64,000 nucleotides of DNA from Escherichia phage vB_EcoM_PhAPEC2, in sequence record NC_024794.1; one strand, given 5' to 3'. The notes beneath the pieces were generated by a model. The model was not told where the DNA came from, ran no database searches, and saw only the letters and a list, made by a program, of their open reading frames with translations. Position numbers and translations under genes: made by a program. Below are positions 12,152 to 61,640 of the stretch, one piece after another. The stretch's first letter is position 1. Each line of letters opens with the position of its first letter.

Positions 12152-12760
12152 TCAGTAACTGACAATAGTCAGATTCCAGATTGTATAACGTCCATCTTGA
12201 ATAATAGAATCTACACGCAGTGTAGTCCCTATAGGGAGCATAAATTCACATTCGTCAGATATAAGTCTAGCATTAGACCGTCTTGTCGCTTCAGGGAAAG
12301 CTCCATTGAACTCACAAGATGGCGCAGCCAGAATCATGTTAAGCATATGTTCACGGAAGTTGAAAGCAAATGGTGCATCTTTGATGCAGAACATATTAAA
12401 TGTTCCGTAAAAATTATACGAAGCAAAGTTACGTGCTACACCGAACACTGGGCTGAAGCTCATTACTCTGTCAAATTTAATAATACTACCAATACCTTTA
12501 TCATCGAGTGTGGCCATAGTTTTCTTAGAGATTCCACGATACATTGTCTCAGGAACAGAAGACGTCCAATTTCTACGAACGATTGAACTTAAATCTTGTT
12601 GGATGCTATCAGGCTTGTTTTCCATACACTGCCATAGTACACTTTGTTCAATGTCGCTGAATTGCTCATCGATTTTGTACTGAAGCATATCTTGATAATC
12701 CGGGCATTGAGCACGACGAACCATTTCTTCAATTTCACACTCGTTATACGGCATAAACAT
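12152..12760 (-). CDS. modA: Mod-type ADP-ribosyltransferase
   Basis: 202 aa; R / S-x-S / E-x-E triad candidates (YRGIS, SFSP, ECEFML); synteny with T4 modA. Confidence 0.6.
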   Translation of the reverse strand: MFMPYNECEIEEMVRRAQCPDYQDMLQYKIDEQFSDIEQSVLWQCMENKPDSIQQDLSSIVRRNWTSSVPETMYRGISKKTMATLDDKGIGSIIKFDRVMSFSPVFGVARNFASYNFYGTFNMFCIKDAPFAFNFREHMLNMILAAPSCEFNGAFPEATRRSNARLISDECEFMLPIGTTLRVDSIIQDGRYTIWNLTIVSY

Positions 12761-12817: not shown

Positions 12818-13399
12818 CTAAAAATTCAACATTTTCAAATGAATGATTTTGTATAATCGAGATAAAGGGTCATATTCTAAGTCTTCAATTTCCACAATCT
12901 CAAATCGAGAGATGCCTGAGACCATGTACTCTTGTTCAGATTCAATCATATCTAGGACGTCAACACGCTTTTCTTCCATAACATGCTTAGGGTTCTTTCC
13001 GGCGAGTACAATGTTAACCATGTTTTGGTAGTAATCAAAAATGAATGGAGCATTCCTGAGACTAAGAATAGTGTACGTCTGATATTCCCATCTCCCGGAG
13101 AATTGACGAGCTGTGCTGAAATCAGTTGTGAACGATGTTACTCGTCCAGGAGACCAATGGCATCCAACAGAAAGAAGGGAAAGACGTTCTACTTCTTCTG
13201 GAGTTACACCACGGTAGAGTTCTACTGGTACTGTAGAAGTCATATGCTTACGAACAAGATGGTCTAATTCATAGTGGAAATCCGGGTCTTCCTTAGAATC
13301 GGTGCAAGCCCAGAGAATGTTTTGTTCTTGGCGGGTGAATTTGCTATCAATCAGATTTGTTAGGTATTCACGTTCTTGAAGTTCAGATTGACATGTCAT
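12818..13399 (-). CDS. modB: Mod-type ADP-ribosyltransferase
   Basis: 193 aa; YRGV, FSTAR, EQEYMV motifs; paralogous to preceding ORF. Confidence 0.6.
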   Translation of the reverse strand: MTCQSELQEREYLTNLIDSKFTRQEQNILWACTDSKEDPDFHYELDHLVRKHMTSTVPVELYRGVTPEEVERLSLLSVGCHWSPGRVTSFTTDFSTARQFSGRWEYQTYTILSLRNAPFIFDYYQNMVNIVLAGKNPKHVMEEKRVDVLDMIESEQEYMVSGISRFEIVEIEDLEYDPLSRLYKIIHLKMLNF

Positions 13400-57961: not shown

Positions 57962-58543
57962 TTATAACAACCCTGTCAAATCATTCCAATGCTTCCGGCA
58001 TAATGACACATATCTATCGGTATCACCAATTTCAATTTGACTGCCATCTGTAATTGGAAGTCCGTCTTCCGTGACTCTAGCTACCATTGTGGCCTTTTTA
58101 CCACAATGACAGACACCTTTAAGTTCAACAAGCTTATCGGCAATAGCCATTAATGCTTGAGAACCTTCAAATAGATTACCTTTAAAATCTGTTCGTAGAC
58201 CATATGCCATTACCGGCACATTGTATACGTCAACAATACGACTAAGTTGATACACCTTTTCAGTAGTTAAGAACTGAGCTTCGTCAACAAATACACAGTG
58301 AATATCCTTTTGCGCTGCAGCCCATTTATAGAATTCAAAGATATCCATGTCTTTTGTAATTATATTGGCATCCTGACGAATACCAATACGAGAGACTATT
58401 TCACCTTTTGAATCACGAGTATCAATAGCCGGTTTAAGAACTAATACACCCATGCCACGTTCTTTATAGTTGTGTGCGGCAGTAAGTAATGAAGCAGACT
58501 TACCAGCGTTCATAGCGGCATATGTAAAAATTAAACTAGCCAT
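57962..58543 (-). CDS. tk: thymidine kinase
   Basis: 193 aa; P-loop AAMNAGKS, zinc site CHCGKKA...CRKH. Confidence 0.9.
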   Translation of the reverse strand: MASLIFTYAAMNAGKSASLLTAAHNYKERGMGVLVLKPAIDTRDSKGEIVSRIGIRQDANIITKDMDIFEFYKWAAAQKDIHCVFVDEAQFLTTEKVYQLSRIVDVYNVPVMAYGLRTDFKGNLFEGSQALMAIADKLVELKGVCHCGKKATMVARVTEDGLPITDGSQIEIGDTDRYVSLCRKHWNDLTGLL

Positions 58544-58552
58544 AAGAGTCCC

Positions 58553-58735
58553 TTATAGTGAATTCACGTAGTCAATGAGTTCTTGTTCTTTCCTGTCAAA
58601 TGATTCCATCAATGCTTGATATTCTTCATCTGTTAAAGGAGCATATTCATCGTACGCATTGGTGGCTGCTTGCTCATCCAATAGGTCATGGATAAGTTCG
58701 AACAGTTTAGTTTTCTCTTCTTTAGTCAATTTCAT
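58553..58735 (-). CDS. hypothetical acidic protein
   Basis: 60 aa. Confidence 0.45.
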   Translation of the reverse strand: MKLTKEEKTKLFELIHDLLDEQAATNAYDEYAPLTDEEYQALMESFDRKEQELIDYVNSL

Positions 58736-59226
58736 TTAGGTTCCCAATCGACAATCACAATTTCTAGTTTAGTGGAATACGTATCTAAAATCTCTTCAAT
58801 GACATCCCAGTTTCCACCACCAATACCTGCACCAATTCTTGGCATATAAATTACAGGCTTTGTTATCTTATTCTTTCCGAATTCATTTAATTCTATTATA
58901 CAATTCATTAAAGCAGAGTACTCAAAATTAGGTCCAGGCTCAAACTGTGTATAAAGATTAAAGCAATAAGCTTTATGGGTCTTAAAATATTTTTCATAAA
59001 CCGAATAAGTCCCGAGTTTAGACTCGTCTCCGAATTCGGTTTGAAGTTTATCGGCTTCTAAAATTTTTGGATAAGCCTTTGCTAATTGTCCTGCCACACC
59101 AGCGCCCATTGTATGAAAACAATTACACCCATGAGCAATATTATTACCTTTAGAAAACAGGGCGACAATATCGCCCTTGATATAGTTTTTAATCACTTGC
59201 TGCAAGTCCTCTAGTATAAGAGTCAA
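58732..59226 (-). CDS. macro-domain-like protein (possible ADP-ribose binding/hydrolase)
   Basis: 164 aa; NNIAHGCNCFHTMGAGVAGQL resembles macro-domain glycine-rich loop; from motif memory. Confidence 0.45.
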   Translation of the reverse strand: MTLILEDLQQVIKNYIKGDIVALFSKGNNIAHGCNCFHTMGAGVAGQLAKAYPKILEADKLQTEFGDESKLGTYSVYEKYFKTHKAYCFNLYTQFEPGPNFEYSALMNCIIELNEFGKNKITKPVIYMPRIGAGIGGGNWDVIEEILDTYSTKLEIVIVDWEPK

Positions 59227-59536
59227 CTAGGCGGTCTACCATAGAATTGCATGCTGCCTTATCTTTAGGTTCCGCCACCGAGCATTCTAATATTTGCCAT
59301 TTTTTATGATATCGTTTAATTAAGGTAGACGCCTTGAACCTACTAGACGCCCCATCTTTTTCTCCGTCTTTATACGCATATAATAATTTTTGTGAAAAAT
59401 CTACTTTACACTCTTGACTTTTACCACAATAATCAGACGCCGTTCTGTTTGTATACTCCGTTACATCAGTATATGTAGTATTAGCAAAAGCGTTAAATGA
59501 AACCAAGCCAACTATTAAAGCCAACATTTTGGTCAT
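59189..59536 (-). CDS. secreted Cys-containing protein
   Basis: 115 aa; signal peptide MTKMLALIVGLVSFNAFA; ATGA-coupled. Confidence 0.5.
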   Translation of the reverse strand: MTKMLALIVGLVSFNAFANTTYTDVTEYTNRTASDYCGKSQECKVDFSQKLLYAYKDGEKDGASSRFKASTLIKRYHKKWQILECSVAEPKDKAACNSMVDRLVDSYTRGLAASD

Positions 59537-60075
59537 TCTTTTATTTCCAGTAGTTTATTTGATTTAAGGTAATTAGCCTTTTCTAGGACTTCAGAAGCAT
59601 ATTTACTTCCAGCACTTGTCTTCCATCCTGCATTATATGAGGATATAGCTTTTCTTATATCCCCATTATGTATATTTAACCAATAAGAAAATTCGATATA
59701 AGCCCATCTGGCTGAATTAGACCGCTTAGATAGCATTTTCTTAATTTGGGCATCAGTCATATTATAACCAAGCTGGTTAATTCTTGCCCTCATTGTTGGT
59801 AGATAATTTTGGAACATTCCATACGCATGGTGACCTTTCTTATCTTTAAGATTAATACCGGCAGATGATTCCTGCCATAGTATTGCGGCCATTATGTATC
59901 CAAGTCCTTTCTTATGCATATTTTCATGCGTTTTAAATTTTCCGTCCTTAGAAAACTGTTCCCCAAACTGATAAGCATAATTCAAGTTATCGAGTTGGAC
60001 ATTACTAAAAGTATGCTCGGAGCTATGTGCTGATAATGAAAGAGCAAATAGACCAGCGAGTAGTGCTTTTCTCAT
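59533..60075 (-). CDS. secreted lytic transglycosylase-like protein (SLT domain)
   Basis: 180 aa; signal peptide; SLT motifs QESSAG, AYGMFQ, SYNAGW. Confidence 0.6.
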   Translation of the reverse strand: MRKALLAGLFALSLSAHSSEHTFSNVQLDNLNYAYQFGEQFSKDGKFKTHENMHKKGLGYIMAAILWQESSAGINLKDKKGHHAYGMFQNYLPTMRARINQLGYNMTDAQIKKMLSKRSNSARWAYIEFSYWLNIHNGDIRKAISSYNAGWKTSAGSKYASEVLEKANYLKSNKLLEIKE

Positions 60076-60083
60076 GTTTACCT

Positions 60084-60542
60084 CTAGATTTTAATCACTG
60101 CTTTAGAAGCTTTTCCTGGTAGTCGTTTATTGTTAATAATAGCCATTCTGCATTGAAGAGTCTTCATTTTGAATGCTGGATTTTCGCGACAAACTGTAAG
60201 TCCTAACCAAAGATTTCCATCAGTTATTTCTAAACGGCCTGGGCGATATTCGACACCTTCGACAAAATCTTCATCAACATCTGGACGTGCCGGCATTGAT
60301 AAAAATTCTGTAACTTCTTTAACATGATTTTTTACTTTACGAAATAATTCAAAAACGTAATTCTCATCTATTTCTCTTTGGATGGCACGATCTAAGAGAT
60401 GTTGAGAATACTTGATATGAAAGCCTGGTAGTCCAAGAGACTTTGCAGCATCTTTTATACCGGCATTGATTTGACGAAACTCCGTTTCAAAGATTCGACG
60501 GAGTTTATTGCGGCGGATAAAAACGTCTGAATTGATAGTCAT
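60084..60542 (-). CDS. regB: RegB endoribonuclease
   Basis: 152 aa; near-identical to remembered T4 RegB (FIRRNKLRR..EITDGNLWLG..CRMAIIN). Confidence 0.88.
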   Translation of the reverse strand: MTINSDVFIRRNKLRRIFETEFRQINAGIKDAAKSLGLPGFHIKYSQHLLDRAIQREIDENYVFELFRKVKNHVKEVTEFLSMPARPDVDEDFVEGVEYRPGRLEITDGNLWLGLTVCRENPAFKMKTLQCRMAIINNKRLPGKASKAVIKI

Positions 60543-61064: not shown

Positions 61065-61278
61065 AAGGAATTTCCTCATCGGTGGCAAGGTCATATTCGA
61101 CCAATTGGATAGGCTCATTAATACCATATCCACGTACAGTGATATCGGTTGTCGGATATTTTCCAGTAATATCACCCGTTCTAAATGCTTCAATGAATGA
61201 TTGCTCGCCTGAGCAACTAAACCAGGCGGCAAAACATTTTAAAACATCTTCAGACCCTTCTATAACCAATTTAGCCAT
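61054..61278 (-). CDS. hypothetical protein
   Basis: 74 aa; TAATG-coupled to GrcA-like gene. Confidence 0.45.
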   Translation of the reverse strand: MAKLVIEGSEDVLKCFAAWFSCSGEQSFIEAFRTGDITGKYPTTDITVRGYGINEPIQLVEYDLATDEEIPYVD

Positions 61279-61640
61279 TATAGACTCTCAGTAAAGGTAC
61301 GAGCGATAACGTCGCGCTGTTGTTCCGGAGTCAGAGAGTTAAAGCGAACTGCATATCCGGATACACGGATGGTCAGCTGCGGATATTTTTCCGGATGCTT
61401 AACTGCATCTTCCAGAGTTTCACGACGCAGAACGTTAACGTTCAGGTGTTGACCACCTTCAATTTTAACTTTAGGTTGATGTTCAATTTCAATTTCACGA
61501 GCATGCAAACCGTAGAAAATTTCTGGGTCTACAATAGCGTCTTCTTTAAAAGTCTTAGAGACAATAATCCGGGCTTGAGTACCGTCTTCAAAATAAATAG
61601 TGCCTTTATGTGCACCTTCAAGAATTTGATATGCTTTCAT
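61278..61640 (-). CDS. autonomous glycyl-radical cofactor (GrcA/YfiD-like)
   Basis: 120 aa; C-terminus [31 protein letters not shown] is the glycyl-radical signature of PFL/GrcA. Confidence 0.8.

What the first reader, a model, noticed from the sequence alone, without database searches (positions are those of the whole stretch)
58732..59226. Macro-domain-like protein downstream of thymidine kinase
The 164-aa product has a glycine-rich loop (HGCNCFHTMGAGVAGQL) like those of ADP-ribose-binding macro domains. The same window encodes two Mod-type ADP-ribosyltransferases, so an ADP-ribose eraser could tune phage-made marks or reverse host ADP-ribosylation of phage DNA or RNA.
Basis: inference. Interest (0 to 1): 0.5.

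Follow-up and report, generated by a model that had tools for sequence, protein, structure and literature searches.

The report
T4 Tk.4/AdfM macrodomain ortholog
This gene is the counterpart, in a T4-like coliphage, of T4 gene tk.4 (AdfM), a small ADP-ribose-removing "macrodomain" enzyme already shown genetically to protect T4 from the bacterial DarTG2 defence, so the finding is real but already known.

Summary

Two details need correcting. The real start is almost certainly GTG at 59196 (154 aa), not TTG at 59226 (164 aa). The gene also lies upstream of tk in the direction of transcription: regB > vs.1 > vs > macro > tk.2 > tk.

The window is a Tevenvirinae phage whose closest record is a Mosigvirus. 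The protein is 84% identical to T4 Tk.4 and sits in the same gene order. Tk.4 has been annotated as an A1pp/macro protein since 2006. A 2025 preprint named it AdfM: deleting it sensitises T4 to DarTG2.

The likely mechanism is hydrolysis of the ADP-ribose that DarT2 puts on thymidine in phage ssDNA. This is inferred, not shown biochemically for this family.

One nuance I did not see in the papers I read: this phage family has an invariant Gln (261/261) where DarG and TARG1 have the catalytic Lys. SCO6735, a proven thymidine-ADPr hydrolase, has Gln there too. The family therefore does not look like a captured DarG2.

The idea that it erases ModA/ModB marks has no support. Verdict: already known, low interest.

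The parts
58732..59196 (-). Macrodomain gene, ortholog of T4 tk.4 / adfM (154 aa from GTG, stop included)
59197..59226 (-).
   Evidence: No Shine-Dalgarno sequence lies before the TTG. T4's ATG aligns with the GTG at 59196. Homologues align only from residue 11.
59207..59212 (-). Shine-Dalgarno AGAGGA, 10 nt upstream of the GTG start, inside the end of vs
   Evidence: Read directly from the sequence. The equivalent GAGGA sits before T4's ATG.
59086..59133 (-). Loop 1, HGCNCFHTMGAGVAGQ (residues 22-37): ADP-ribose/substrate-binding loop with His22 and Asn25
   Evidence: H22 is 254/261 and N25 259/261 conserved; G33 and A35 are near-invariant. N25 aligns with SCO6735 Asn27 and PhiKZ AdfM Asn23; mutating either cuts activity (PMC9411070; PMC13309987).
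58945..58959 (-). N-L-Y-T-Q motif (residues 80-84); Gln84 occupies the catalytic position
   Evidence: Q84 and Y82 are invariant in 261/261 family members. hhalign and MAFFT put Q84 on TARG1 K84, the DarG 'PTK' Lys and SCO6735 Gln85. SCO6735 Q85A is inactive.
58807..58842 (-). Loop 2, PRIGAGIGGGNW (residues 119-130): glycine-rich diphosphate-binding loop
   Evidence: P119, I121, G122 and G124 are invariant in A2 and near-invariant across 261 members; W130 is 252/261. G122/G124 align with SCO6735 G126/G128, where G128E reduces activity.
59189..59536 (-). Context: vs (valyl-tRNA synthetase modifier), immediately upstream; its stop overlaps the macro start
   Evidence: PHROG 1256 at E 1.5e-35. 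T4 has the same order.
58553..58735 (-). Context: tk.2 ortholog (DUF7438), immediately downstream; its start overlaps the macro stop, and tk follows at 57962-58543
   Evidence: 47.5% identity to T4 Tk.2. Pfam DUF7438 and TK.

Best explanation
The gene is the ortholog of phage T4 tk.4 (adfM, 'anti-DarT factor macrodomain'). It is an early-region, stand-alone macrodomain of about 17 kDa in the ALC1/TARG1-like class.

Proposed mechanism: when a host DarTG2 system senses infection, DarT2 ADP-ribosylates thymidine N3 in single-stranded phage DNA and blocks replication. The phage protein binds the ADP-ribose moiety in the cleft formed by loop 1 (HGCNC...MGAGVA) and loop 2 (PRIGAGIGGG). It then hydrolyses the thymine-ribose N-glycosidic bond, releasing free ADP-ribose and restoring the template.

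Catalysis most likely follows the SCO6735-type route rather than the Lys-dependent DarG/TARG1 route. An invariant Gln (Gln84), held in place by Asn25, would position the distal ribose and an activated water. A supplementary stoichiometric inhibition of DarT2, as seen for SCO6735 and DarG, is possible.

Status of each step:
- Shown here: macro fold, class placement, orthology and synteny with T4 tk.4, conservation of the SCO6735-type active-site residues.
- Shown elsewhere, for T4 only: genetic requirement of tk.4 on DarTG2 hosts.
- Inferred: enzymatic DNA de-ADP-ribosylation by this family, the Gln-based mechanism, and transfer of the T4 phenotype to this phage.
For: Orthology:
- 84% identity and E 2e-103 to T4 Tk.4 over the full length.
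- The order regB > vs.1 > vs > tk.4 > tk.2 > tk matches T4 and holds across Tequatro-, Mosig-, Dhaka- and Karamvirus.

Function of the T4 ortholog:
- tk.4 is the only significant transposon-screen hit on a DarTG2 host.
- The deletion mutant is sensitised (10.1101/2025.11.20.689424).

Fold and class:
- Pfam Macro scores above its gathering cut-off.
- AF2 gives pLDDT 95.
- Foldseek top hits are TARG1 at 3e-10, Poa1p (TM 0.81) and DarG (TM 0.75-0.77).
- The PADLOC DarG model matches at E 6e-9.

Active site:
- Q84 aligns with SCO6735 Gln85, N25 with Asn27, H22 with His24, and G122/G124 with Gly126/Gly128.
- These positions are invariant or nearly so in 261 family members.
- SCO6735 cleaves DarT-made thymidine-ADPr faster than DarG; Q85A is dead and N27S nearly dead (PMC9411070).

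Precedent in another phage:
- A different phage macrodomain, PhiKZ gp104, removes DarT2 ADP-ribose from DNA in vitro (PMC13309987).

Expression:
- The protein is expressed in a T-even phage; T2 Tk.4 was detected in an infected-cell proteome.
Against: - No biochemical assay exists for any member of this Gln-type phage family. The T4 preprint infers enzymatic removal only by analogy.
- The protein lacks the catalytic Lys of DarG and TARG1.
- It also lacks SCO6735's long mobile loop and its DNA-positioning lysines: Lys34 is replaced by Ala32, and Lys89 lies in a 5-residue insertion absent here. Transfer of the SCO6735 mechanism is therefore incomplete.
- The sequence is closer to Bt_1257 and Poa1p (E 6e-11 and 1e-8) than to DarG (E 1e-3).
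- The family is very large: 1,112 50%-identity clusters at E<=1e-30 and 2,799 phage records. DarTG2 may not be its only or main target.
- The phenotype was measured in T4, not in this phage, at 84% identity.
Confidence: 0.78

Rival explanations
1. It is an ADP-ribose-1''-phosphate phosphatase (Poa1p-like), or another scavenger of soluble ADP-ribose derivatives such as O-acetyl-ADP-ribose or ADPr-1''P toxins and signals. This is what the long-standing 'phosphatase / A1pp' annotation implies, and what Iyer et al. proposed in general for phage macrodomains.
For: - PHROG 335 and the T4 RefSeq record call it 'phosphatase; A1pp motif'.
- The family is far more widespread than would be expected for a counter to one defence system.
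Against: - The annotation is a domain name inherited from SMART/CDD, not an assay.
- At the catalytic position the phage family has an invariant Gln, like the DNA hydrolase SCO6735. By my reading of the alignment, Poa1p has Ser there ('LFTSS').
- The only phenotype reported for tk.4 is DarTG2 sensitivity.
- The two activities are not mutually exclusive, because macrodomains are often promiscuous.
Confidence: 0.1
2. It is an eraser that tunes the phage's own ADP-ribosylation marks, made by Alt/ModA/ModB on RNA polymerase, S1 and other host proteins, or their RNAylation products.
For: - The window does encode two Mod-like ARTs.
- SCO6735 and TARG1 also remove protein-linked mono-ADP-ribose.
Against: - There is no genomic linkage: 46 kb separates the genes, and the macro gene is conserved next to vs/tk, not next to mod.
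- By established knowledge, Alt/ModA/ModB modify arginine, whereas ALC1/TARG1-like macrodomains act on acidic-residue esters and thymine/uracil bases.
- The family occurs in many phage groups, including Vequintavirinae, Ackermannviridae-like, Pseudomonas, Vibrio and Acinetobacter phages. I did not check whether those phages carry Mod homologues.
Confidence: 0.04
3. It protects mainly without catalysis: it binds and inhibits DarT2 directly, or shields ADP-ribosylated DNA, acting as a stoichiometric antitoxin mimic.
For: Catalytically dead SCO6735 Q85A, DarG K80A and TARG1 K84A all inhibit DarT in vitro, SCO6735 most strongly.
Against: - The protein lacks the C-terminal DarT-binding domain of DarG. 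It is 154 aa and matches only positions 4-148 of the 338-position NCBIfam model.
- Complete invariance of the active-site residues Q84, N25, G122 and G124 across 261 diverged members argues for retained chemistry.
Confidence: 0.06

Closest known systems
Phage T4 Tk.4 = AdfM (anti-DarT factor macrodomain; NP_049723; bioRxiv 10.1101/2025.11.20.689424)
   Same: 84% identical over the whole length. Same size, same position between vs and the small tk.x genes upstream of tk, and the same start-stop overlap with vs. All family-invariant residues are shared.
   Different: The start codon is GTG rather than ATG. The host phage is a Mosigvirus-like relative that lacks tk.1 and tk.3. No experiment has been done on this allele.
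Streptomyces coelicolor SCO6735 and Bacteroides Bt_1257 (Gln-type subclass of ALC1-like macrodomains; PDB 5E3B, 2FG1/2AFC; PMC9411070)
   Different: The phage family lacks the 5-residue longer 'mobile loop' and the DNA-positioning Lys34 and Lys89. It has its own invariant residues: D49 and Y82 (both 261/261) and K/R60 (259/261). It has Thr83 where SCO6735 has Gly84. Overall identity is only about 21-30%.
DarG2 antitoxin macrodomain (T. aquaticus 5M31/5M3E, M. tuberculosis 5M3I) and its phage copy PhiKZ gp104 'AdfM' (PMC13309987)
   Different: - The catalytic Lys ('FPTK') is replaced by Gln.
- There is no C-terminal DarT-binding domain and no adjacent darT.
- Scores are weak: NCBIfam DarG 32 bits against a cut-off of 250, and PADLOC DarG 34 bits against 133 for PhiKZ gp104.
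- PhiKZ gp104 hits Mtb DarG at E 9e-25, this protein at E 6e-3.
- The two phage proteins that both carry the name AdfM therefore belong to different subfamilies.
Human TARG1/OARD1 (C6orf130)
   Same: Top Foldseek hit (E 3e-10). Shares the His-x-x-x...MGAGIA loop and the PRIG-x-G loop. TARG1 also removes thymine- and uracil-linked ADP-ribose.
   Different: The TARG1 catalytic dyad is not conserved: Lys84 aligns with Gln84, and Asp125 falls in the glycine stretch (G126-G127) of loop 2.
Yeast Poa1p (ADP-ribose-1''-phosphate phosphatase; PDB 6LFQ-6LFU)
   Different: Poa1p has Ser rather than Gln at the catalytic position and acts on a tRNA-splicing by-product. No phosphatase evidence exists for the phage family.

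Membership tests
Macrodomain superfamily (Pfam PF01661) | Profile score at or above Pfam's gathering threshold | tested here: met
   28.1 bits against a cut-off of 22, covering profile positions 2-117 of 118.
Macrodomain superfamily (Pfam PF01661) | Three-layer alpha/beta/alpha fold with a central mixed sheet, matching solved macrodomains | tested here: met
Macrodomain superfamily (Pfam PF01661) | Two glycine-rich ADP-ribose-binding loops (Asn + GxG after strand 2; P-x-I-G-x-G...G-G after strand 5) | tested here: met
   HGCNCFHTMGAGVA and PRIGAGIGGG are present, with N25, G33, G122 and G124 invariant or nearly so. Ligand binding itself was not tested.
ALC1/TARG1-like class of macrodomains | Closer in structure to TARG1, DarG, SCO6735/Bt_1257 and Poa1p than to MacroD-, PARG- or viral-type macrodomains | tested here: met
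T4 Tk.4 / AdfM orthologous group | Full-length high identity to T4 Tk.4 | tested here: met
   129/153 identical (84%), no gaps, E 2e-103.
T4 Tk.4 / AdfM orthologous group | Conserved position: vs > tk.4 > small tk.x ORFs > tk, on the early-gene strand | tested here: met
   Window gene order compared with T4 and four other Tevenvirinae.
T4 Tk.4 / AdfM orthologous group | Gene needed for growth on DarTG2-expressing hosts | not testable with these tools
   Shown only for T4. It needs a phage knockout and plaque assays.
DarG2 antitoxin (NCBIfam NF048014 equivalog) | Score at or above the equivalog cut-off; two-domain architecture with a C-terminal DarT-binding domain | tested here: not met
   32.4 bits against a cut-off of 250. 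The protein is 154 aa and matches only profile positions 4-148 of 338.
DarG2 antitoxin (NCBIfam NF048014 equivalog) | Catalytic lysine in the P-T-K motif (Taq/Mtb DarG Lys80) | tested here: not met
   Gln84 aligns to that position and is invariant in 261/261 family members. PhiKZ gp104 keeps the Lys.
DarG2 antitoxin (NCBIfam NF048014 equivalog) | Encoded next to a darT toxin gene | tested here: not met
   The neighbours are vs and tk.2. Two metagenomic homologue contexts also lack a DarT-type Pfam hit.
SCO6735/Bt_1257 Gln-type subclass | Gln at the TARG1-K84/DarG-K80 position, stabilised by the loop-1 Asn | tested here: met
   hhalign places N80...Q84 on SCO6735 N81...Q85 and N25 on Asn27. The roles of these residues are described in PMC9411070.
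SCO6735/Bt_1257 Gln-type subclass | Mobile loop five residues longer than in TARG1/DarG, carrying Lys89/Lys93; Lys34 in loop 1 | tested here: not met
   A 5-residue gap opposite SCO6735 'MKTGS'. Position 32 is Ala, Ser or Gly in 252/261 members.
Poa1p-type ADP-ribose-1''-phosphate phosphatase | Phosphatase activity on ADPr-1''P and the Poa1p active-site residues | not tested
   Only overall similarity was measured. His22 matches Poa1p His23. The paper defining Poa1p's catalytic residues was not in the library.

The most novel reading that the evidence does not exclude
The T4-type AdfM family is not a captured DarG2 antitoxin. It would be a third, phage-specific branch of the ALC1/TARG1-like macrodomains.
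- It has a Gln-based (SCO6735-like) catalytic centre.
- It has a short mobile loop.
- It has its own conserved residues of unknown role: Asp49 and Tyr82 (both 261/261) and Lys/Arg60 (259/261).

The family is very abundant: more than 1,100 50%-identity clusters at E<=1e-30, and roughly 2,800 of 50,697 phage records. It may therefore be a broad-spectrum eraser of base-linked ADP-ribose, acting on thymine in DNA and uracil in RNA, against several host ARTs rather than a dedicated DarT2 counter. On this reading, the two phage proteins currently sharing the name AdfM (T4 Tk.4 and PhiKZ gp104) arose independently.
Probability: 0.4. Interest if true: 0.4.

Novelty: already known. Interest (0 to 1): 0.22.

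Why it matters
For genome annotation, this gene and its roughly 2,800 phage homologues are usually labelled 'phosphatase' or 'hypothetical protein'. In at least one close relative the gene is truncated at an internal ATG. 'AdfM-like DNA ADP-ribosylglycohydrolase (putative), anti-DarTG2' would describe it better.

For phage therapy and host-range prediction, the gene's presence predicts resistance to DarTG2-type defence.

The one point with research value is mechanistic. The family carries an invariant Gln instead of the DarG/TARG1 lysine. This suggests water-mediated catalysis as in SCO6735, and an origin separate from DarG2 and from the PhiKZ AdfM. That is easily testable with Q84A and N25A mutants.

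Tried and rejected
- **Searching for bacterial DarT-linked homologues.** I looked up the contexts of a homologue labelled as a Nitrospirae MAG (P0112) and of a 246-aa homologue (P0118). Both sit on short phage-like contigs of hypothetical genes with no DarT-type domain. This says nothing about origin.
- **Promoter and terminator scan of 57.8-61.0 kb.** Promoter-like sites were fewer than in shuffles (7 against 10.7), and terminator-like sites were not enriched (3 against 1.9). No operon boundary could be assigned.
- **Hairpin inside the 5' end of the gene.** It is conserved in T4, T4_ev240 and IME08 but lost in PG7 and a Klebsiella phage. It can be explained by the K-G-D-I-V-A-L codons, so I did not treat it as a functional element.
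- **MAFFT alignment of Bt_1257 around the catalytic motif.** It was visibly shifted, so I relied on hhalign against SCO6735 instead.
- **Papers I could not read.** LeRoux 2022 (the DarTG paper) was not held. The Poa1p structure paper did not turn up in a search.
- **CmdTAC (mRNA ADP-ribosylation) as a target.** Rejected because the abstract of PMC11618068 says CmdTAC defends robustly against T-even phages that carry tk.4, and the paper does not mention tk.4 or any phage macrodomain.
- **First structure job.** I repeated it without that row.

Full report
**1. What is in the sequence**

On the minus strand an ORF runs from a TTG at 59226 to a stop at 58732 (164 aa). It contains the quoted HGCNCFHTMGAGVAGQL.

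The minus-strand gene order, going down in coordinates, is as follows.

| Coordinates | Gene | Evidence |
|---|---|---|
| 60084-60542 | regB | Pfam REGB_T4, E 5e-69 |
| 59533-60075 | vs.1-like SLT protein | Pfam SLT, weak (E 1.3e-3); PHROG 600, E 3.7e-67 |
| 59189-59536 | vs | PHROG 1256 |
| 58732-59226 | the macro ORF | see section 3 |
| 58553-58735 | 60-aa DUF7438 protein | 47.5% identical to T4 Tk.2 |
| 57962-58543 | tk | Pfam TK, E 7e-57 |

The macro gene therefore lies upstream of tk in the direction of transcription. It is 'downstream' only in plus-strand coordinates.

**2. Start codon**

The TTG at 59226 has no Shine-Dalgarno sequence and would overlap vs by 38 nt. Ten codons further in, a GTG at 59196 is preceded by AGAGGA (59207-59212) and overlaps the vs stop (GTGATTAA). 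T4's annotated ATG of tk.4, with its ATGA overlap with vs, aligns exactly to this GTG. Homologues align only from residue 11 of the 164-aa version.

I therefore take the CDS as 58732..59196, 154 aa. The nearest GenBank relative (OR062947) annotates only 125 aa from an internal ATG, which would remove the first strands and the His-Gly-Cys-Asn motif. That is an annotation artefact.

**3. It is a macrodomain**

- Pfam Macro (PF01661) scores 28.1 bits against a gathering cut-off of 22.
- PHROG 335 ('phosphatase') matches at E 8e-67.
- phmmer against PDB sequences gives Bt_1257 at 6e-11, Poa1p at 1e-8, SCO6735 at 6.5e-5, TARG1 at 7e-4, and the DarG macrodomains at 1e-3 to 6e-3.
- An AlphaFold2 model built on 45 homologues has mean pLDDT 95.1 and pTM 0.91.
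- Foldseek against the PDB returns TARG1 (3e-10), Poa1p (TM 0.81), Bt_1257 and the DarG macrodomains (TM 0.75-0.77).

The protein belongs to the ALC1/TARG1-like class.

**4. Which phage, which gene**

The region is 98-99% identical at the nucleotide level to a group of Escherichia phages including ST2, AlbertHofmann, APCEc01 and ATK47. One of them, 348Ecol098PP (OR062947.1), is classified as Mosigvirus, Tevenvirinae.

The 154-aa protein is 84% identical, without gaps, to T4 Tk.4 (NP_049723; E 2e-103). T4 has the same order vs > tk.4 > tk.3 > tk.2 > tk.1 > tk. The same synteny is seen in a Tequatrovirus with a divergent allele, a Dhakavirus, a Karamvirus and a Klebsiella phage. This is the tk.4 ortholog.

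**5. What is already known about tk.4**

- The A1pp/macro domain in tk.4 orthologues was reported in 2006 (PMC1524935). The T4 RefSeq record says 'phosphatase; contains A1pp phosphatase motif'.
- A November 2025 preprint (10.1101/2025.11.20.689424) screened a T4 transposon library on a DarTG2-expressing host. tk.4 was the single significant hit, and a clean knockout was sensitised to DarTG2. The authors noted structural similarity to Mtb DarG and named the gene adfM. They proposed, by analogy with the NADAR protein AdfN, enzymatic removal of ADP-ribose from DNA.
- A 2026 Cell Reports paper (PMC13309987) independently used the name AdfM for PhiKZ gp104. It showed in vitro removal of DarT2-made ADP-ribose from a TNTC oligonucleotide, reduced by an N23A mutation.
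- Tk.4 protein has been detected in T2-infected cells.
- Phage macrodomains in general were surveyed by Iyer et al. 2022, who found them in 41% of myoviruses.

The finding is therefore already known, both as a domain and as a function.

**6. Mechanism, and one nuance**

I aligned 45 homologues (A2) and then 261 family members from two database searches. The conserved positions are below.

| Residue | Conservation (of 261) |
|---|---|
| Gln84 | 261 |
| Tyr82 | 261 |
| Asp49 | 261 |
| Cys26 | 260 |
| Asn80 | 260 |
| Asn25 | 259 |
| Gly122 / Gly124 | 259 |
| His22 | 254 |

hhalign against TARG1 places Thr83-Gln84 on Thr83-Lys84 of TARG1, so the catalytic Lys is replaced by Gln. TARG1 Asp125 falls on a glycine. 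I supplied the TARG1 sequence from memory and then confirmed it as identical to PDB 2LGR. MAFFT puts the same Gln on the Lys of the DarG and PhiKZ 'FPTK' motif.

This is not a sign of inactivity. SCO6735 and Bt_1257 form a described subclass with Gln85 at this position. SCO6735 removes DarT-made thymidine-ADPr faster than DarG or TARG1. Its Q85A mutant is dead, N27S is nearly dead and G128E is impaired. A water-mediated mechanism has been proposed in which Gln85, held by Asn27, positions the distal ribose (PMC9411070). SCO6735 also removes uracil-ADPr from RNA (PMC13036486).

hhalign of the phage family against SCO6735 gives these equivalences:
- Asn80/Gln84 on Asn81/Gln85
- Asn25 on Asn27
- His22 on His24
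- Gly122/Gly124 on Gly126/Gly128

The most likely chemistry is therefore SCO6735-like.

The phage family also differs from SCO6735. It lacks the 5-residue extension of the mobile loop that contains Lys89. It has Ala, Ser or Gly where SCO6735 has the DNA-positioning Lys34. It has its own invariant Asp49 and Tyr82 and a conserved Lys/Arg60, whose roles I could not assess because model coordinates are not exposed.

**7. Not a DarG**

- The NCBIfam DarG equivalog scores 32 bits against a cut-off of 250, and only the macro half of the model matches.
- The PADLOC DarG model gives 34 bits, against 133 bits for PhiKZ gp104.
- PhiKZ gp104 hits Mtb DarG at E 9e-25 and keeps the Lys.
- There is no adjacent darT.

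The protein works against the same pathway as DarG2 but is not a member of that family. The two phage 'AdfM' proteins belong to different subfamilies.

**8.

Two Mod-like ADP-ribosyltransferase genes are indeed in the window, at 12152-12760 and 12818-13399 (PHROG 832), next to srd and mrh. They lie 46 kb away from the macro gene. Nothing links the macro gene to them. By established knowledge their products are arginine-linked, which is not a documented substrate of this macrodomain class. I give this rival about 4%.

**9. Distribution**

tblastn finds the protein in 2,799 of 50,697 phage records. These include Straboviridae of many hosts, rV5/FV3-like phages, Pseudomonas PAK_P/KPP10-like phages, Vibrio and Acinetobacter phages and others. 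A profile search of 1.84 billion cluster representatives gives 17,286 hits at E<=1e-3 and 1,112 at E<=1e-30.

Two metagenomic contexts I inspected look phage-like and have no DarT. The breadth leaves room for targets other than DarT2. This is the basis of the 'novel case' reading.

**10. Verdict**

The macrodomain interpretation is correct. The anti-DarT reading matches published T4 genetics. The Mod-eraser reading is unsupported. Novelty: already known. Interest: low (0.22). The residual value is the Gln-for-Lys active site and the likely independent origin from DarG2.

Noticed in passing
window 59159-59177 (- strand), plus the T-run to about 59150: An 8-bp GC-rich hairpin, AGGGCGAT-ATT-GTCGCCCT, followed by GTTTTCT, sits 20 nt inside the macro gene (about -13 kcal/mol). 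The scan flagged it as terminator-like. It is conserved in T4, T4_ev240 and IME08 but absent in PG7 and a Klebsiella phage. It may be a by-product of the K-G-D-I-V-A-L codons, or an attenuator or recombination junction between vs and tk.4.
   Followed up: partly
L003 (LR597657.1, T4_ev240) 1501-1980, compared with window 58732-59196: Tequatroviruses carry at least two tk.4 allele classes: T4/T6/window-type (84-100% identical to each other) and a type about 58% identical. T4_ev240 is identical to T4 for roughly the first 40 nt, up to the hairpin, and then diverges. This suggests mosaic exchange within an anti-defence gene.
   Followed up: partly
window 61278-61640 (- strand): A 120-aa ORF containing ...RVSGYAVRF..., a GrcA-like autonomous glycyl-radical cofactor. 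It matches the 'vs.6' Gly_radical ORF noted for T4-like phages in 2006 and is annotated GrcA in OR062947.
   Followed up: no
L002 (OR062947.1) 2618-2995: The closest GenBank relative annotates the macro gene from an internal ATG (125 aa), which cuts off the N-terminal strands and the His-Gly-Cys-Asn motif. Other records label the gene 'phosphatase', 'hypothetical protein', 'Poa1p-like' or 'leucine aminopeptidase, subunit E, domain 1'. Annotation of this family is inconsistent.
   Followed up: yes
window 58553-58735 (- strand): Only one small ORF (a Tk.2 ortholog, Pfam DUF7438) lies between the macro gene and tk. T4 has three there (tk.1, tk.2, tk.3), so tk.1 and tk.3 are absent in this phage.
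   Followed up: yes
window 59189-59536 (- strand), vs: The same preprint that names AdfM reports vs, the gene immediately upstream, as the most depleted T4 gene in minimal medium compared with LB. The two neighbours thus have unrelated conditional phenotypes despite translational overlap.
   Followed up: no
window 12152-12760 and 12818-13399 (- strand): The two Mod-like ADP-ribosyltransferases give no Pfam hit at E<=0.01 and are recognised only through PHROG 832 and PHROG 26695. Pfam lacks a model that captures ModA/ModB.
   Followed up: partly
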